The position numbers and the translations under genes are program-made. A stretch of 42,491 nt of DNA from positions 1 through 42,491 of the IMG/VR virus record IMGVR_UViG_3300045988_020338; one strand, given 5' to 3'. The notes under the pieces were generated by a model. That model had not been told where the DNA came from. It saw only the letters and a list, made by a program, of their open reading frames with translations, and did no database searches. This document shows positions 18,444 through 32,699 of the stretch, piece by piece. Every line of letters begins with the position of its first letter. Position 1 is the first letter of the stretch. Origin of the DNA: a virus.

Positions 18444-19086
18444 TCGTCACCACCTCTCTTGTCACAATTTTGCTACCAGCCCCCACCCCTTGGCCTTACA
18501 TAGCAGACTTTACCCGCCCCGAAGGGCTTCAACGCCGCACTCAAAGCAGCGGCTCTCCTCTTTTGGTACGGCATTGCAGTCCTGTCCTGCTTTAGCGATT
18601 CGGGAAAGTCCCCGTCACTCGCTGTGGTCTCCCCTTACGGGACACCTATGCCGCATATGTCCGCAACGAGCCGGTCGGCGCTTCGGCATCTCCAACAGCA
18701 TGAGCATTTGCATCCTCACGTCCGGGCGGCAGCTGCCTGTTCTGCCCTTCGTTGCGGTGCTGCCGTCTAAAACTGCTATCACCATGCGCAATCACGGTGA
18801 CGTGCTGGAACTCCGGTAGCATAGTAGTTTGTAAGCATGTCCCCGCTGGGCCACATCGTTGAGAGGTGCGCGGGGTCCTGTGCCGCATGAAAGGTGCGAC
18901 CTCTCGGCCCTGATCGTGGGCTGCATCGTGCGTGCGGCATGTTGCGGGGGGCGGTGTGAAAAGATGAAAAGCACCGCGCCCCGCTATGCCGCAGGAGGTG
19001 GACGCCATAAATGAGAGAACCGCAAAGGCTTTTACACCTCTGCGATTCTATTATCTCATAAGCAAATGGCTTTTTAAGGCCAACTT
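18444..19086 (-). ncRNA. Candidate large structured non-coding RNA (class unknown)
   Basis: 643 nt between the late activator and terS, with no RBS-led ORF. Helices found by eye:
- 18661-18669/18749-18757: 9 bp, perfect.
- 18934-18940/18986-18992 plus 18944-18956/18972-18984: 7+13 bp with one mismatch.
- 18861-18867/18899-18905, nested in 18848-18852/18906-18910.
A C(UUCG)G tetraloop (18516-18527) and a GUAA loop (18632-18641) exist only in the minus sense. Confidence 0.45.
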
Positions 19087-24918: not shown

Positions 24919-25298
24919 GGCGCACCGCCTGCCATTTCGGCAGCCGCCGCTTCCCACGTTAGCCCGTGTTCTCTCGCATAACGCGATATGCTCGGCATGA
25001 ACGCCTCCTGTTCGGCTGTCCGCTCGATGTATGGCTTCATCCACGCCACCGAGACGTGCGGGAAAACTGCGCCCCTGATCTTTGCAAGCACTTGGCCGAC
25101 CTTCGGGGGGAACCCCTTCGTATCCTCGGCGATTAGCGCATTTACTGCGTCCTTTGCCGCGGCAGGGTCTTCACTGCTCAGCATATCCAGCCAGAGGGAC
25201 ACCAGTTCTTCGGCTTCCGCACGGGTCATCTTGGCGTAGGCCTGCGGATAAGCCTGTTTTAATCGCCCCAAAAGGCTAATTACGTCAGCTCTTTCCAC
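24915..25298 (-). CDS. Replication loader / replisome-organiser C-terminal-like protein (putative)
   Basis: Trimmed to GTG 25298 with GGAGGAGGAAAAAAACC upstream. 127 aa: ...LKQAYPQAYAKMTRAEAEELVSLWLDMLSSEDP...FPPKVGQVL. Follows the DUF4373 gene. Confidence 0.4.
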   Translation of the reverse strand: MERADVISLLGRLKQAYPQAYAKMTRAEAEELVSLWLDMLSSEDPAAAKDAVNALIAEDTKGFPPKVGQVLAKIRGAVFPHVSVAWMKPYIERTAEQEAFMPSISRYAREHGLTWEAAAAEMAGGAP

Positions 25299-26115
25299 GG
25301 TTTTTTTCCTCCTCCAACATCTCGGCGAATACATCGCCGCCGACAAACGGCTTATTTTGCGGCGCTTTGCCGCCCTTGTCCTGCTCTCTGGCAAGCCAAG
25401 CGGTGATGAAACGCTTAATCCCTCCGCGTGTCTTTCGCTTGGTAGGGTTCGCGTCGCACCATCCTGCCATGTTTCTAAGCTGCTGCAGAACGTCAACGTT
25501 CGGATAGAGCTGCGACCATTTGGCCCTGTCATTCTCCGAAACGTCGAAAAAAGTCCCGTCATTCAGCGGCAAAGAAATCACCGGCGGCGCGCCATCCGCT
25601 TGCGGCTCAGCGCATAATATGTACTCTTCTTTACTCTTCTCTACTCTACTTTTCTCTACTTTACTTTGTCGTTCGATGTCAGCATTTTTTGAAAAAATGT
25701 TTACATTTTTCGCAGAAATGTAAACATTGGGCAAAATTTGGGCAACATCAACCAGAAGGATGTTGTAATCGACTTCGAGAGTTTTACGGCGGCTGACTGC
25801 CTCAAAGTACCTTTCCTGTATGCCTTTAGAGGTCAATACGTGGTACTTGTCATACTTCTCTTTGTCGAACATCCCTCGTCTGATAGAAGCCTCTATTATT
25901 TCGGAAACGACGCTCCCACCCAACCCGACCTTGCGGGCGAACAAAAGCGCAACCTCCTCTGTCCATTCAATGTAGTAACCCGCCTTGCCGTAAATCTCTT
26001 GCAGCAAGTGAACGACTACACCAAATCCTGTCAAGCCAAATTCTGCTTCTATCAGTTCAAACTTTGCGTTCAATGTGACATCAAGCGGAAAGTAATCGAT
26101 CCCGCTCTTTGCCAT
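25285..26115 (-). CDS. DUF4373-domain replication initiation / organiser protein
   Basis: 276 aa. N-terminus: MAKSGIDYFPLDVTLNAKFELIEAEFGLTGFGVVVHLLQEIYGKAGYYIEW (Lin1244-type domain). The C-terminal part ends in ...KRFITAWLAREQDK. Confidence 0.75.
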   Translation of the reverse strand: MAKSGIDYFPLDVTLNAKFELIEAEFGLTGFGVVVHLLQEIYGKAGYYIEWTEEVALLFARKVGLGGSVVSEIIEASIRRGMFDKEKYDKYHVLTSKGIQERYFEAVSRRKTLEVDYNILLVDVAQILPNVYISAKNVNIFSKNADIERQSKVEKSRVEKSKEEYILCAEPQADGAPPVISLPLNDGTFFDVSENDRAKWSQLYPNVDVLQQLRNMAGWCDANPTKRKTRGGIKRFITAWLAREQDKGGKAPQNKPFVGGDVFAEMLEEEKNRGKS

Positions 26116-29855: not shown

Positions 29856-29998
29856 CCCCTGTCGATATACGGCAGCAGCTCATACAGCACCTTGCACGCC
29901 GCGCACGCGCCGATGACGGCGAGGCTCGTGGCGAAGTCGCAGCCGTTGAGCGCGATCACCGCAGCGGCGATGCCGCCGAAAAACAACGTGTCAGCCAT
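29843..29998 (-). CDS. Small membrane protein (51 aa)
   Basis: Trimmed to ATG 29998 (ATGGCTGA overlap with the upstream mini-ORF). MADTLFFGGIAAAVIALNGCDFATSLAVIGACAACKVLY is hydrophobic. Confidence 0.45.
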   Translation of the reverse strand: MADTLFFGGIAAAVIALNGCDFATSLAVIGACAACKVLYELLPYIDRGCRR

Positions 29999-30143
29999 GC
30001 TTTTCTCCCTTCTTCTCGTTCGGCACAAAACCGACAAACTCAAGGCCGCGACCGCGTGCGTAAATCTCGCCCATGATCGTCCCCAGCTTTACAGGGTCAG
30101 GGGGCGTGACCCAGATAATCTTGTACTCCGGCTTTTTTCTCAT
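29991..30143 (-). CDS. Small hypothetical protein (50 aa)
   Basis: Not in the ORF track. ATG 30143 is preceded by GGAAGAAAGGAAAAGGCA. Hand translation: MRKKPEYKIIWVTPPDPVKLGTIMGEIYARGRGLEFVGFVPNEKKGEKHG*. Confidence 0.4.
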   Translation of the reverse strand: MRKKPEYKIIWVTPPDPVKLGTIMGEIYARGRGLEFVGFVPNEKKGEKHG

Positions 30144-30177
30144 TGCCTTTTCCTTTCTTCCGTGCTACAATAAGCAC

Positions 30178-30250
30178 GGACACAATATCTTGTGGTGAGA
30201 TTTGTCCCACCCGCCCCGCTCGATGCTGCAACATTGGGCGGGGCATTTTT
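30178..30250 (+). ncRNA. Candidate ~70-nt antisense sRNA (OOP-like) with its own promoter and terminator
   Basis: Plus-strand TTGCCT (30143-30148), 17-nt spacer, TACAAT (30166-30171). Downstream, a 7-bp all-GC stem (30210-30216 / 30236-30242) is followed by GCATTTTT (30243-30250). There is no plus-strand gene here, so the transcript would be antisense to the early operon. Confidence 0.3.
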
Positions 30251-30299
30251 ACGCTTTGCGTTGCGAATCGGTCCCATGCCACAGCGTAGCATCGAAACT

Positions 30300-30735
30300 C
30301 CACACAATTCCGCTGCATCCCTTCGCTGAACTATTCCGCTGCGTTGCTATGCCTTGCTTTGCCTTGCTATGCCATCGCTAGTCACTGCTTTTCGCTGCTT
30401 TTCGCTGCCATGCCGCTGCTTATCTAGTCGGGGCGGCTCTATTCCATAGCTGTGCAAGTCTAAGCATTTCCACCGCTTATCGTGTCATTGCCATGCCGCT
30501 GCGAAACCCCACCTTGCTAAACCATTGCGTTGCCCTCCAATGCTGTACAGCTCACATCATTGCTGTGCCAATGCGCCGTTGCCATGCCCTGCCACGCCCG
30601 GCTAAGCGCTTCCATTGCTGTTCGGTTCCGCGCCTCGCGTATCCTTTGCTGTGCCGGTCTCGTCATTGCTACGCAGGTCCCTTCCATTGCAACACGTTAC
30701 CAAGCTAAGCTTTACCATCGCAATGCTGTGCTACG
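30300..30735. repeat. Degenerate short-repeat (iteron-like) field in a ~620-nt non-coding gap
   Basis: - CATTGC occurs exactly at 30486, 30523, 30568, 30613, 30664 and 30685, each within YCATTGCNNTGCC-like 13-mers.
- CTGCTTTTCG is in tandem at 30385-30404.
- GCCATGCCGCTGC occurs at 30407 and 30490.
- ATTCCGCTGC occurs at 30307 and 30333.
- The plus strand is A-poor. Confidence 0.8.
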
Positions 30736-30765
30736 CTTCGCACTGCAAAGCAATTCCTTCGCGTG

Positions 30766-31359
30766 TTACTCGATTTCCTCCCAGCGGAATCTGCCTTTCC
30801 CACTGTTTCGCCACTGGCCAATGCCGGAGAATCTACCGTAATCCAGCCAGTCGCGCACAACGTCGATGTGGTCGTCGCACAGGCAGACCACCGTAAATTC
30901 GCACGTTGCCCCGGCGGGGATTTCCTCGCTCATTGCAAGGCTGACGCGCTCGCCCTGCGCCGTTTGCGCTCTCAGCGGGCGCTGGCACTCCTTGATCTCG
31001 CCGTCAAAGAGAATTGGAATGGTGCGCGGCTCGGGGAAAATCAGCTTGTCGATTTCCTTCTTGTAAGCCTTGATTTTGCTGCTGGACGAATCCTTGACCT
31101 TGCGAAGCCCGCCGCAGGTGTCCTTGAAAAAGCCCTTGATCTGGTAGTCGTACAAAAACGGCGTGCCATCGTCCAAACGCGGAAAAATGGTCATGGACTT
31201 CTCGGCTACCGCGTCAGCGCCGAGCGCTGCCACCTCGTCCTCCACGCTCGCCGCATCCGGCGCGTGGCTGCCGATAAACTCGCGGTAGATATCAGGGTTT
31301 GCGGGGCTGGTACCGAGAATCGGCTCGATAAACGTTAATTTAACTTTAAGTTCTTTCAT
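30766..31359 (-). CDS. Hypothetical early protein with C-terminal glycine-rich loop
   Basis: 197 aa, second gene of the early operon. No family recognised. The C-terminus is GRFSGIGQWRNSGKGRFRWEEIE. Confidence 0.7.
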   Translation of the reverse strand: MKELKVKLTFIEPILGTSPANPDIYREFIGSHAPDAASVEDEVAALGADAVAEKSMTIFPRLDDGTPFLYDYQIKGFFKDTCGGLRKVKDSSSSKIKAYKKEIDKLIFPEPRTIPILFDGEIKECQRPLRAQTAQGERVSLAMSEEIPAGATCEFTVVCLCDDHIDVVRDWLDYGRFSGIGQWRNSGKGRFRWEEIE

Positions 31360-31382: not shown

Positions 31383-31622
31383 TTAGTTCTCTTCGTTGGG
31401 CCTCATTGCCTTTTCTACTCTTGCAGCCTGTACGGCTTCCGATGCTTCTCGAATCTCCGCTTCGGTCACGCCATATAAGCGGGTCAGCGGTCTAATGTAC
31501 TTGCTTGCGATACCATTCACACCGCGTTCCCAGTTCGACACCGCAGAAACTCTTACACGGAGTTTCTTTGCTACGTCTTCCTGACGCAAACCGGCGTTCT
31601 CTCGGATTGCCTTTAATTCCAA
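31383..31622 (-). CDS. Cro-like XRE-family HTH regulator (first early gene)
   Basis: 79 aa. TTG start with AAGGAGGGG upstream. LRQEDVAKKLRVRVSAVSNWERGVNGIASKYIRPLTRLYGV is an HTH_3-type motif. Confidence 0.8.
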   Translation of the reverse strand: MELKAIRENAGLRQEDVAKKLRVRVSAVSNWERGVNGIASKYIRPLTRLYGVTEAEIREASEAVQAARVEKAMRPNEEN

Positions 31623-31839: not shown

Positions 31840-31886
31840 TTTACGCTTTGCACAATTTTTTCTTTCTCCTTTGTGAGGGTTTGTCA

Positions 31887-32699
31887 ATGGCGCTATTTGA
31901 TAAGCAAATAAAAAAATACGTCGAAGAAAACTTTTCTGAAAAAGAAAAAGCACTCGCAGAAACCGAGCGCTCTGTCCAGCGGCATTTTGCTAAAAGCCGC
32001 GAATATAGAATTATGCTGCAAGATTATCAGAAGGAATTGCGTGAGCGTGATAGAGCCATTTCTGAAAAAGAAGCCAAACTATCTAAACGCAAAGAGGATT
32101 TGGACGAATTCGAATCCACATTAAAGGCGCGAGTAAAAGAAGATGTTGTGCGAGAGGCCAAAGAAGAAAAAGCTACGTTAAAAGCGGATTCTATAAAGCT
32201 GCAAGAGGAAATAAAATCCTTATCGGCGAAAAAAGCCGGCCTTATGGCTGCGGAATACAAAATTATAGACTGGGTCTCTCGGATGGAGAAAAAAGAAAGC
32301 GAAGTATTCGACGAAATACTTGCCGACGCAAACAAATTCCAAAAGTTCAAACTGTCTATTGATGGGTATGAGTTTGAAAGCTACGTTGCCGATCTGCTTA
32401 TAAAAAACGGCTATGAGAAGGTCGAGGTAACAAAAAAGTCGCAGGATTTCGGAGCAGATATTCTTGCCGAGAAAACAGATGTGCGATATGCGTTTCAATG
32501 CAAATACTACTCAGGACAAGTTGGAATTGAAGCGGTGCAGCAAATTTACGCAGCAAAAGAGCATTACGATTCTCATGTTGCAGTTGTCGTTACAAACAGC
32601 GTGTATACAAAAGCCGCTAAGATTTTGGCAGAAGAATTAAACGTAGTCCTGTGGGACTGCGAAGACCTCACGGTTTTGTCACAAAACAAGGATATGTAA
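31887..32699 (+). CDS. Coiled-coil protein with C-terminal Mrr-cat-type (PD-(D/E)xK) restriction endonuclease domain
   Basis: Trimmed to ATG 31887 (GAGGG upstream). 270 aa. The N-terminal ~150 aa are a Lys/Glu heptad-rich coiled coil. The C-terminus is GYEFESYVADLLIKNGYEKVEVTKKSQDFGADILAEK...YAFQCKYYSGQVGIEAVQQIY...VAVVVTNSVYTKAAKILAEELNVVLWDCEDL. Confidence 0.75.
   Translation: MALFDKQIKKYVEENFSEKEKALAETERSVQRHFAKSREYRIMLQDYQKELRERDRAISEKEAKLSKRKEDLDEFESTLKARVKEDVVREAKEEKATLKADSIKLQEEIKSLSAKKAGLMAAEYKIIDWVSRMEKKESEVFDEILADANKFQKFKLSIDGYEFESYVADLLIKNGYEKVEVTKKSQDFGADILAEKTDVRYAFQCKYYSGQVGIEAVQQIYAAKEHYDSHVAVVVTNSVYTKAAKILAEELNVVLWDCEDLTVLSQNKDM

What the first reader, a model, noticed from the sequence alone, without database searches (positions are those of the whole stretch)
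30300..30765. Dense field of degenerate 10-13-nt repeats in a strand-asymmetric 620-nt non-coding gap of the early operon
Exact CATTGC occurs six times within ~205 nt (30486, 30523, 30568, 30613, 30664, 30685), each inside a YCATTGCNNTGCC-like 13-mer. There are further near-copies (CAATGCTGT at 30539 and 30721; CGTTGCCATGCC at 30587; CCTTTGCTGTGCC at 30643). Upstream are exact duplicates: ATTCCGCTGC at 30307/30333, GCCATGCCGCTGC at 30407/30490, and tandem CTGCTTTTCG at 30385-30404. The plus strand is almost A-free, which is why three overlapping plus-strand ORFs appear. The early (minus-sense) transcript would therefore be purine-rich with many GCAAUGG/GGA motifs.

Hypotheses:
- An iteron-type replication origin for the DUF4373 initiator or the adjacent 197-aa protein.
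- A protein-sponge RNA segment, by analogy with the multi-GGA architecture of CsrB/RsmZ-type RNAs.
- A recombination or partition site.

Spacing is irregular (21-51 nt) and no AT-rich unwinding element is obvious. That weakens the simple origin model and makes the region more interesting.
Basis: partly seen in the sequence, partly recalled or inferred. Interest (0 to 1): 0.65.

Follow-up and report, generated by a model that had tools for sequence, protein, structure and literature searches.

The report
Phage guide-RNA array beside Cas7-like gene
The "repeat field" is an array of five-base repeat units that sits next to a small Cas7-like protein gene in a gut phage, matching the VIPR RNA-guided DNA-silencing systems first described in 2026 preprints; it is not a replication origin.

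Summary
On the minus (early-operon) strand, 30245-30756 is a near-perfect run of about 100 pentamers. Each has G at position 1 (90-98%), C or A at position 2, and three free positions. Hexamers of the form GCNNNG, usually GCAAnG, divide the run into 14-15 blocks of 26-51 nt.

The adjacent 197-aa gene (30766-31359, minus) encodes a Cas7-like RAMP protein:
- Foldseek's top 50 PDB hits are all CRISPR RAMP-complex chains, mostly Cas7 family.
- A family profile matches type VII Cas7 at E=5e-6.
- hhalign against the phage SUSP1 Vipr family gives E=2.7e-5 over the full length.

Of 146 related loci, 136 carry a period-5 tract beside the gene. Phages with Vipr-like proteins at least 98% identical carry different sets of blocks.

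This fits VIPR systems (bioRxiv 10.64898/2026.04.26.720920), in the alternative "YNNNG" repeat form. Three things were not shown:
- No DNA targets were found.
- No structured tail follows each guide.
- No conserved accessory gene was seen.

The origin, sponge-RNA and partition-site readings are not supported. Verdict: a new member of a recently described kind.

The parts
30766..31359 (-). vipr-like gene: a 197-aa single-domain RAMP (Cas7-like) protein with a C-terminal glycine-rich loop, SGIGQWRNSGKGRF
   Evidence: It has no Pfam, PHROG, NCBIfam or PADLOC match. The AF2 model has pLDDT 73.8 and pTM 0.72. All of the top 50 Foldseek PDB hits are chains of CRISPR RAMP-based effector complexes, mostly Cas7 family, with the best being type VII Cas7 8z4j_J at E=1.9e-5 and TM 0.55. 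The family profile matches type VII Cas7 at E=5.1e-6 and Csm4 at E=6e-4. hhalign against the SUSP1 Vipr family gives E=2.7e-5 and 74.5% probability over residues 1-196 versus 1-190.
30757..30765 (-). 9-nt leader between the stop codon and the first block (CACGCGAAG)
   Evidence: Segmentation.
30245..30756 (-). Putative vrRNA array: 512 nt made of G-(C/A)-N-N-N pentamers in 15 blocks, most closed by a GCNNNG hexamer
   Evidence: Across the whole 622-nt gap, segmentation gives 94 pentamers, 13 hexamers and 3 four-mers. The lag-5 z-score is 9.3. The predicted RNA fold is no stronger than shuffles, z=+0.76. The same architecture appears beside the gene in 136 of 146 related loci.
30716..30756 (-). 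Block 1 (8 units): GAATT GCTTT GCAGT GCGAA GCGTA GCACA GCATT GCGATG
30685..30715 (-). Block 2 (6 units), ends in GCAATG. Shared, with a few substitutions, by L062 and L064.
30644..30684 (-). Block 3 (8 units), ends in GCAAAG. Shared, with a few substitutions, by L062, L064 and L066.
30613..30643 (-). Block 4 (6 units), ends in GCAATG
30574..30612 (-). Block 5, irregular. It ends in the 4-mer GGCG, which looks like a junction scar and is also present in L064.
30523..30573 (-). Block 6 (10 units), ends in GCAATG. Variants occur in L061, L063 and L144.
30497..30522 (-). Block 7 (5 units), ends in GCAGCG
30471..30496 (-). Block 8 (5 units), ends in GCGGTG
30445..30470 (-). Block 9 (5 units), ends in GCTATG
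30414..30444 (-). Block 10 (6 units), ends in GCAGCG
30373..30413 (-). Block 11 (8 units), ends in GCGATG
30337..30372 (-). Block 12 (7 units), ends in GCAGCG. It contains the 10-nt tandem repeat that TRF reported at 30340-30373.
30311..30336 (-). Block 13 (5 units), ends in GCAGCG
30280..30310 (-). Block 14 (6 units), ends in GCTGTG
30245..30279 (-). Block 15, terminal run of 7 units with no closing hexamer. It ends in the A-run that precedes the hairpin.
30213..30244 (+). GC-rich hairpin that bounds the array. On the + strand it has 13 pairs and is followed by TTTTT, so it reads as an intrinsic terminator for transcription antisense to the array. It probably does not belong to the guide RNAs.
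   Evidence: The terminator scan found it. Compensatory changes support it across 21 distinct sequences. Non-Watson-Crick cells are mostly C.A on the minus strand, which is G.U on the + strand: 48 against 9.

Best explanation
The gap is the guide-RNA array of a VIPR-type system (Viral Interference Programmable Repeat), and the adjacent 197-aa gene encodes its Vipr protein, a minimal Cas7-like RAMP.

Shown here:
- The protein has a RAMP fold and a glycine-rich loop. It is a distant, full-length homologue of the experimentally characterised SUSP1 Vipr.
- The RNA-sense strand is a strict 5-nt register. One G is invariant, the next position is biased to C or A, and three positions are free.
- The gene and the tract are linked across a very large family of gut-phage loci.
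- Block content turns over between phages whose proteins are at least 98% identical.

Inferred by analogy with SUSP1 VIPR (bioRxiv 10.64898/2026.04.26.720920 and 10.64898/2026.04.26.720927):
- The array is co-transcribed with the gene from the early promoter.
- It is cut into short guides of 4-10 pentamers, plausibly at the G|G junction after each GCAAnG hexamer.
- One protein subunit binds each pentamer, holding the fixed G and C/A and presenting the variable bases.
- Those bases pair discontinuously with double-stranded DNA of a competing phage or prophage and block its transcription.

In the paper's frame the unit here is Y3-N4-N5-x-G2. In other words, the first G of GGY has become free. 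This fits the alignment, where the SUSP1 residues that read G1 (H17, D177) are T17 and Q182 here, while W178 and R179 are kept as W183 and R184.
For: Protein:
- All top 50 Foldseek hits are chains of CRISPR RAMP-based effector complexes, mostly Cas7 family.
- The family profile matches type VII Cas7 at E=5.1e-6.
- hhalign against the SUSP1 Vipr family gives E=2.7e-5 over 171 colinear columns.
- SUSP1 Vipr is the top hit of the family HMM among 199 SUSP1 ORFs.
- The closest viral structure match, 66% identical, is named 'Cas system-associated RAMP superfamily protein' in BFVD/UniProt.

RNA:
- The pentamer register is shown.
- Autocorrelation over 43 loci peaks at 5, 10, 15/16, 21, 26, 31, 36 and so on, meaning one extra nucleotide about every 36 nt.
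- All 64 triplets occur at the three free positions.
- The array is unstructured.

Linkage:
- 123 of 146 loci have the tract within 0.9 kb downstream of the gene, and 13 more have it upstream. Background windows reach the same score in only 0.3% of cases.
- The genes downstream of the array differ between loci.

Programmability signature:
- 24 phages with at least 98% identical protein carry 100 distinct blocks in shuffled combinations.
- L144, whose protein is 100% identical, has 20 listed blocks, none identical to the window's although some are close variants.

Literature:
- VIPR is defined by a ~20-kDa phage RAMP plus tandem pentanucleotide vrRNAs. Alternative NNNGG, YNNNG and NNNNG repeats and other array architectures, including contiguous 'staggered' arrays, are reported.
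- The SUSP1 locus was read directly: YNNGG repeats flank a 195-aa gene.
Against: - No DNA target was found. Fourteen pairing and skip rules tested on 1.6 Mb of related phage DNA gave no clear excess over shuffled guides. Four exact gapped scans of IMG/VR returned either nothing or hits that look like chance.
- There is no structured tail after each guide, unlike type II vrRNAs.
- The conserved structure after the array fits the + strand better.
- No conserved vap gene was seen. The commonest neighbours are small HTH proteins, in about 30% of loci.
- Homology to SUSP1 Vipr is distant: pairwise BLASTP E=0.012 and hhalign probability 74.5%.
- TM-scores to Cas7 are about 0.5, and parts of the model have low confidence.
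- Transcription, processing and RNA binding were not observed.
Confidence: 0.85

Rival explanations
1. The tract is a cis-acting leader RNA. The RAMP-like protein coats its own downstream transcript, much as TRAP binds spaced triplets, to control read-through or translation of the downstream early genes. It would not act as a trans-acting guide.
For: The tract lies inside the early operon, between the protein gene and the next genes. The motif is periodic and the RNA is unstructured. No trans target was found.
Against: A regulatory leader has no need for three free positions per unit, use of all 64 triplets, or wholesale block turnover between phages with at least 98% identical proteins. In 13 loci the tract lies upstream of the gene instead. 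The downstream genes differ between loci.
Confidence: 0.06
2. The tract is an iteron-type replication origin bound by the DUF4373/Lin1244 initiator or by the 197-aa protein.
For: It is a dense run of direct repeats in a non-coding gap of the early region, a few kb from the replication genes. The mean period of 5.14 nt is about half a DNA helical turn.
Against: Only one or two of every five bases are conserved, and block content differs between phages whose 197-aa protein is at least 98% identical. The tract follows the RAMP gene across phages with different downstream gene sets. The strand asymmetry always matches the direction of transcription. There is no AT-rich unwinding element. An AT-rich tandem-repeat cluster lies inside the initiator gene at 25622-25728.
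Confidence: 0.03
3. The tract is a decoy or sponge RNA. It would titrate a host RNA-binding protein of the CsrA type, or a competitor's Cas7 or Vipr subunits, as RNA anti-CRISPRs do.
For: It is purine-rich with many repeated short motifs, including 13 GGA triplets. Phage RNA anti-CRISPRs that mimic repeats are known (PMC10651486, listed).
Against: I saw no sign that the GGA triplets sit in hairpin loops, and the array is unstructured. The locus encodes its own matching RAMP protein, and the two are linked in about 93% of loci. There is no similarity to CRISPR repeats and no Rfam match. Hypervariable positions are not expected of a decoy.
Confidence: 0.03
4. The tract is a decayed remnant of a protein-coding gene, or compositional noise.
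For: ORF finders call short ORFs in it on both strands.
Against: A 5-nt period is incompatible with coding. All three minus-strand frames contain stops. The lag-5 z-score is 9.3. The architecture is conserved in 136 of 146 loci.
Confidence: 0.01

Closest known systems
VIPR type II systems (Escherichia phage SUSP1 and a Pseudomonas fulva prophage; bioRxiv 10.64898/2026.04.26.720920 and 10.64898/2026.04.26.720927)
   Same: Both are phage-encoded. Both have a protein of about 195-197 aa with a single RAMP domain and a G-(D/Q)-W-R glycine-rich loop. Both have an adjacent non-coding tract of tandem pentanucleotides with fixed and hypervariable positions, with several guides per locus and variable guide content. 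There are no cas genes and no CRISPR array.
   Different: The repeat here is (C/A)NNNG, with one fixed G, rather than YNNGG. Guides appear to be short blocks of 4-10 units joined head to tail and closed by GCAAnG, not ~100-nt RNAs of 9-16 units each with a pseudoknotted tail. No vap gene lies next to the protein gene. The protein is only distantly related (hhalign E=2.7e-5). The pairing rule and the targets are unknown here.
Other VIPR types with alternative repeats (NNNGG, YNNNG, NNNNG) and contiguous 'staggered' arrays, mentioned but not detailed in the text of the same preprint
   Same: A YNNNG-type pentamer and a contiguous array in which the end of one guide adjoins the start of the next match what is seen here.
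   Different: The figures and tables that define the seven types were not available, so I could not tell whether this Oscillospiraceae-phage clade is one of them. The preprint describes a 1-nt overlap between guides, whereas here there is one extra G per junction.
Class 1 CRISPR-Cas backbones (Csm3/Cmr4 of type III, Cas7 of type VII) with their crRNA
   Same: These are the best structural and sequence matches. In both cases a RAMP subunit is expected to polymerise along a guide RNA, with a thumb that interrupts pairing at a fixed period.
   Different: The period here is 5 nt, not 6. Specificity sits in scattered positions of a repeat rather than in a contiguous spacer. There are no CRISPR repeats, no Cas6/Cas5/Cas10/Cas1-2, and the setting is a phage early operon.
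TRAP and its (G/U)AG-NN leader in Bacillus (from my own knowledge)
   Same: A protein oligomer reads a short conserved element repeated about every 5 nt in unstructured RNA.
   Different: TRAP is not a RAMP protein. Its RNA is a fixed cis-regulatory leader with no cassette turnover.
Iteron replication origins of lambdoid and Firmicutes phages
   Same: Direct repeats in the early region.
   Different: Iterons are conserved units of about 10-20 bp matched to their initiator and sit next to AT-rich DNA. Neither is true here.

Membership tests
VIPR (Vipr protein plus vrRNA) | A small (~20 kDa) RAMP protein with a single RRM core, a glycine-rich loop and a thumb | tested here: met
   The protein is 197 aa. 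The AF2 topology is beta1, helical insert, alpha1, a beta-hairpin at 123-147 (the putative thumb), alpha2, G-loop, beta4. All top 50 Foldseek hits are CRISPR RAMP-complex chains, mostly Cas7 family. The profile matches type VII Cas7 at E=5.1e-6. G179, W183 and G189 are invariant and Q182 and R184 nearly so. The identity of the thumb is inferred from the model only.
VIPR (Vipr protein plus vrRNA) | Homology to an experimentally characterised Vipr (SUSP1) | tested here: met
   hhalign family against family gives E=2.7e-5, 74.5% probability and 171 columns over full length. The HMM's top hit among 199 SUSP1 ORFs is Vipr, at E=0.01. BLASTP gives E=0.012. The relationship is distant but colinear.
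VIPR (Vipr protein plus vrRNA) | An adjacent non-coding tract of tandem pentanucleotide repeats with conserved G(G)Y positions alternating with variable positions | tested here: met
   G is 98%, C/A is 85%, and three positions carry 0.02-0.13 bits of information across 1848 internal pentamers. The window alone gives z=9.3. The consensus is the YNNNG variant rather than YNNGG.
VIPR (Vipr protein plus vrRNA) | Variable positions and guide content are hypervariable between close relatives | tested here: met
   24 phages with at least 98% identical protein carry 100 distinct blocks. L144, with an identical protein, has a different set of blocks.
VIPR (Vipr protein plus vrRNA) | Encoded by a phage or provirus, outside any CRISPR-Cas locus | tested here: met
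   The window is a phage genome with Cro-like, YqaJ, RecT, methylase and initiator genes nearby. No CRISPR-like repeats were found. 513 relatives occur in IMG/VR. The other ORFs of the window were not all screened for cas genes.
VIPR (Vipr protein plus vrRNA) | Each vrRNA ends in an invariant, structured 3' tail | tested here: not met
   Blocks end only in a GCAAnG hexamer. The single conserved structured region after the array occurs in only 42 of 146 loci, and its base-pair pattern fits the + strand. The preprint reports other architectures, so this does not exclude membership of the wider class.
VIPR (Vipr protein plus vrRNA) | An accessory vap gene next to vipr | tested here: inconclusive
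   No neighbour is universally conserved. An upstream HTH_3 protein occurs in 40 of 124 loci, and the largest downstream ORF cluster covers 34 of 129. The Cro-like HTH gene at 31383-31622 could be either Cro or a vap.
VIPR (Vipr protein plus vrRNA) | Variable bases match natural DNA targets under a gapped (1-nt skip) rule | tested here: inconclusive
   No clear excess over shuffled guides appeared under 14 rules on 1.6 Mb of related phage DNA. Exact gapped scans of IMG/VR for blocks 3 and 6 gave 0, 0, 8 and 3 hits, consistent with chance. Short guides and exact-match-only scans give little power.
VIPR (Vipr protein plus vrRNA) | vrRNAs are expressed, processed and co-purify with Vipr, and the RNP binds and silences DNA | not testable with these tools
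   This needs small-RNA sequencing, pull-down and reporter assays.
CRISPR-Cas (class 1) | A CRISPR array of 24-40-nt repeats with unique spacers, together with other cas genes | tested here: not met
   No such repeats were found. There were no Pfam or PADLOC Cas hits for the neighbouring genes. The period is 5 nt, not 6.
Iteron replication origin | Conserved initiator-binding repeats next to an AT-rich region, co-varying with the initiator | tested here: not met
   The repeats are degenerate at 3 of 5 positions and block content varies between closely related phages. GC content is 53-58% throughout. The tract is linked to the RAMP gene, not to any one set of downstream genes.
CsrB/RsmZ-type sponge RNA | Multiple GGA motifs presented in hairpin loops, with a match to known families | tested here: not met
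   The fold z-score is +0.76. No Rfam hit was found even at E<=10.

The most novel reading that the evidence does not exclude
This very large clade of gut-phage systems may be a distinct VIPR variant with its own code. It has one anchored G per pentamer and three free bases, which might be read as triplets rather than as dinucleotides with a 1-nt skip. Its guides are tail-less, 4-10 units long, set head to tail and delimited only by a GCAAnG-G junction. If so, both guide biogenesis and the pairing rule would differ from those of the characterised type II systems.
Probability: 0.25. Interest if true: 0.75.

Novelty: new member of a known kind. Interest (0 to 1): 0.6.

Why it matters
VIPR systems were first described in 2026 preprints as a minimal, PAM-free way of recognising DNA with an RNA guide, and as a possible ancestor of CRISPR RAMP proteins. 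This locus shows that a very abundant family of human and animal gut prophages, mostly from Oscillospiraceae and other Clostridia, carries such a system in the early operon next to cro. The family has more than 8000 clusters at 90% identity and 1768 at 50%.

It uses a variant repeat, (C/A)NNNG, and a compact block-structured array whose content turns over between otherwise near-identical phages. That offers three things:
- A natural data set for working out the pairing rule of the one-G repeat variant.
- A likely marker of phage-against-phage conflict in the gut.
- An annotation for a large protein family that had no name in Pfam, PHROGs or NCBIfam.

It also explains the spurious ORFs that gene callers place in these gaps.

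Tried and rejected
- Rfam. The gathering-threshold scan of the whole window found only a skipping-rope RNA elsewhere. An E<=10 scan of 29900-31000 found nothing credible, and no hammerhead.
- Protein family libraries. Pfam, PHROGs, NCBIfam and PADLOC gave no hit for the 197-aa protein.
- Local target prediction. I searched 359-615 natural blocks and 655 adjacent block pairs against 1.6 Mb of related phage DNA with the arrays masked, under 14 combinations of paired positions and skip length. No rule clearly beat shuffled guides. Differences were about 0.1 mismatch or less and did not single out one rule. The only strong hits were unmasked arrays.
- Exact gapped scans of IMG/VR. Block 3 with NNN skip 0 and skip 1 gave 0 hits. 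Block 3 with NN plus a 1-nt skip gave 8 hits, in contigs unrelated to this phage family and within the number I estimated for chance. Block 6 gave 3 hits, also chance-like.
- Codon signature in the free triplets. TAA and TAG are depleted, but so are other TA-containing triplets, so the result is inconclusive.
- Substitution rates per position between related blocks. Only 28 pairs were available. G never changes and position 3 changes least, but there are too few data to define the paired positions.
- A generic 'terminal hairpin' search after arrays. It was not specific in GC-rich DNA.
- The conserved 117-nt region after the array as a vrRNA tail. I rejected this because its non-Watson-Crick pairs fit the + strand.
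Full report
**Setting.** The window is a complete temperate phage genome of about 42.5 kb. Genes from about 1.2 kb to 31.6 kb run on the minus strand. The early operon starts with a Cro-like HTH gene (31383-31622). Next come a 197-aa ORF (30766-31359), a 622-nt ORF-free gap (30144-30765), two small ORFs, a DNA methylase, a 3D-domain protein, YqaJ and RecT recombination genes, and a Lin1244/DUF4373 replication initiator. A lysogeny module lies on the plus strand from 31848.

**The observation.** The plus strand is A-poor (15.9% A) rather than A-free.

Read on the minus strand, the tract is in fact a strict pentamer register. Segmentation with a model learned from related loci divides the gap into 94 pentamers, 13 hexamers and 3 four-mers.
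- The pentamer is G-(C/A)-N-N-N.
- The hexamers are GCAATG, GCGATG, GCAGCG, GCAAAG and similar.
- The hexamers close blocks of 26, 31, 36 or 41 nt.
- CATTGC is simply the reverse complement of GCAATG.

Lag-5 self-identity is 0.455, against 0.268 +/- 0.020 in dinucleotide-preserving shuffles (z=9.3). The gap is the highest-scoring tile in the whole window.

**The neighbouring protein.** The 197-aa protein has no hit in Pfam, PHROGs, NCBIfam or PADLOC. Its family is nevertheless very large:
- More than 8000 clusters at 90% identity.
- 1768 clusters at 50% identity with E<=1e-3.

Several lines of evidence place it among RAMP proteins:
- An AlphaFold2 model (pLDDT 73.8, pTM 0.72) matches only chains of CRISPR RAMP-based effector complexes in the PDB, mostly Cas7 family. 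The top 50 include type VII Cas7, Csm3/Csm5-type subunits, Cmr subunits and Cas7-11. The best is 8z4j_J at E=1.9e-5 and TM 0.55.
- A 47-sequence family profile matches the type VII Cas7 sequence at E=5.1e-6 and Csm4 at E=6e-4, through the thumb-to-G-loop region.
- The C-terminal SGIGQWRNSGKGRF loop is nearly invariant.
- The closest viral structure in BFVD, 66% identical, is named 'Cas system-associated RAMP superfamily protein'.

**Linkage of gene and tract.** In eight contigs encoding 80-82% identical proteins, the gene is followed by a 360-455-nt gap. That gap has the same composition and motifs as the window's, although the genes downstream of it differ. Four of these contigs form three length classes that differ by multiples of a 36-nt unit.

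Across 43 T-poor loci the averaged autocorrelation peaks at 5, 10, 15/16, 21, 26, 31, 36, 41 and so on. The register slips by +1 about every 36 nt, which is the signature of one hexamer per block.

Over 146 loci from GTDB genomes, IMG/VR and metagenomes:
- 123 have a period-5 tract within 0.9 kb downstream of the gene.
- 13 more have it upstream.
- Only 0.3% of background windows reach the same score.

Hosts named in the records are mostly Oscillospiraceae and other Clostridia from gut samples.

**Anatomy of the repeat.** In 1848 internal pentamers:
- G is 98%.
- Position 2 is C in 52% and A in 33%.
- The remaining three positions carry 0.13, 0.04 and 0.02 bits.
- All 64 triplets occur at those three positions.

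Blocks have 4-10 units, most often 5-7. They end in G-C(86%)-A-A-N-G. They begin with G-(A/C)-A. The array RNA is predicted to be no more structured than shuffled sequence (z=+0.76).

**Cassette turnover.** Among 24 phages whose protein is at least 98% identical to the window's, I counted 100 distinct blocks. Some are shared in different orders and many are unique. L144 encodes an identical protein but has 20 listed blocks, none identical to the window's although some are close variants. Array length between the stop codon and a conserved downstream region ranges from 167 to 1052 nt.

**Identification.** A literature search found a 2026 preprint describing VIPR systems. In that account:
- The protein, Vipr, is a phage-encoded ~20-kDa ancestral RAMP.
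- The vrRNAs are built of 9-16 YNNGG pentamers, with GGY fixed and NN hypervariable.
- The NN bases pair with double-stranded DNA, skipping every third target base.
- The systems repress competing phages.
- There are seven types. Alternative NNNGG, YNNNG and NNNNG repeats are reported, as are staggered, ribozyme-interspersed and single-guide arrays.

I then read the SUSP1 genome directly. A 195-aa gene (KT454805.2, 28474-29061, minus strand) is flanked by YNNGG tracts.

The window protein aligns with it colinearly:
- BLASTP gives E=0.012.
- The family HMM picks it as the top hit of 199 SUSP1 ORFs.
- A profile-profile comparison gives E=2.7e-5, 74.5% probability and 171 columns.

The companion structural preprint assigns specific roles to SUSP1 residues: H17 and D177 read G1, W178 and R138 hold G2, and R179 forms the Y3 pocket. 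In the hhalign alignment these correspond to T17, Q182, W183 and R184 here. That fits a repeat in which G1 has become free (YNNGG to YNNNG) while G2 and the C/A position remain fixed. This last step is an inference from a moderate-confidence alignment.

**Features of the characterised type II systems not seen here.**
- No guide has its own structured tail.
- The 117 nt after the array is strongly structured (z=-4.05). It occurs in only 42 of 146 loci.
- Two of its hairpins are supported by compensatory changes: 10 of 20 pairs, with 0 of 500 shuffles reaching the same score.
- However, its non-Watson-Crick pairs are mostly C.A on the minus strand, which is G.U on the plus strand (48 against 9).
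- On the plus strand the first hairpin is a 13-bp stem followed by TTTTT, downstream of a plus-strand promoter-like site.

I therefore read this region as a separate antisense element rather than a vrRNA tail. No conserved accessory gene was found.

**Targets.** I could not find natural targets.
- Fourteen rules for paired positions and skip length, applied to hundreds of blocks and block pairs against 1.6 Mb of related phage DNA, gave no clear excess over shuffled guides.
- Four exact gapped scans of IMG/VR gave nothing convincing.
- With guides of 5-8 units and exact matching only, these tests have little power. The result is inconclusive, not negative.

**Rivals.**
- An iteron origin is contradicted by the degeneracy of the units, by block turnover, by linkage to the RAMP gene rather than to any one set of downstream genes, and by the absence of AT-rich DNA. 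AT-rich tandem repeats inside the initiator gene at 25622-25728 are a better origin candidate.
- A CsrB-like sponge is contradicted by the lack of structure and of any Rfam match.
- A cis-regulatory leader coated by the protein remains possible, but it does not explain the hypervariability.

**Verdict.** The finding is real and is best explained as a VIPR-type guide array with its Vipr gene, in a one-G repeat variant with compact, hexamer-delimited blocks. The class is already described in preprints. This locus, and the very large gut-phage clade it represents, are a new member and possibly a distinct type. Expression, processing, the pairing rule and the targets remain to be shown.

Noticed in passing
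window 30143-30250 (+ strand): There is a promoter-like site (TTGCCT, 17-nt spacer, TG-extended TACAAT) at 30143-30171. It is followed by a 13-bp GC-rich hairpin and TTTTT at 30213-30250. Together these would give a ~70-nt RNA antisense to the end of the array and to the leader of the next early gene, reminiscent of lambda OOP or P22 sar. The region is conserved in 42 loci. Compensatory changes support the hairpins, and the wobble pattern favours the + strand.
   Followed up: partly
window 25622-25728: AT-rich tandem repeats lie inside the Lin1244/DUF4373 replication-initiator gene (25285-26115, minus strand): TACTCTACTT x4.4 and a 21-nt unit x2.5. This is a more conventional candidate for the phage replication origin.
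   Followed up: no
window 18662-18756 (- strand): Rfam match to skipping-rope RNA (RF02924), 45.6 bits against a gathering score of 36.7, E=9e-8.
   Followed up: no
window 31848-32699 (+ strand): The first gene of the lysogeny-side operon encodes a 283-aa protein with a lysine/glutamate-rich N-terminal half and a C-terminal Mrr_cat restriction-endonuclease domain. It has PADLOC hits to ZorD-like and PDC-S02 models. It may be a prophage-encoded defence or exclusion gene.
   Followed up: no
window 30574-30612 / 30523-30573 (blocks 5 and 6): The pentamer register breaks once, at a 4-mer (GGCG followed by CATTG). The same break occurs in L064-L066. It looks like a scar from recombination between blocks.
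   Followed up: partly
L005-L008 (contigs encoding P0113): Four otherwise near-identical contigs form three length classes (360, 396, 432 nt) that differ by one or two copies of a 36-nt unit of the array, ACAGCAAAGGAACAGCAAGGCATCGCCCTGCTCTGA. This points to slippage or unequal recombination within arrays.
   Followed up: partly
L019, L028, L030, L037, L040, L048, L051, L138, L141, L145 and others: In 13 of 146 loci the strongest period-5 tract lies upstream of the RAMP gene rather than downstream. For most it is just upstream, as with vrRNA1 of SUSP1; for two (L023, L136) it is several kb away.
   Followed up: partly
L009 (CALDMD010000059.1) and other MAG records: Some contigs carrying close relatives are binned to Prevotella, Mailhella, Muribaculaceae or Staphylococcaceae MAGs, while most are Oscillospiraceae or other Clostridia. 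This is probably mis-binning of phage contigs.
   Followed up: no
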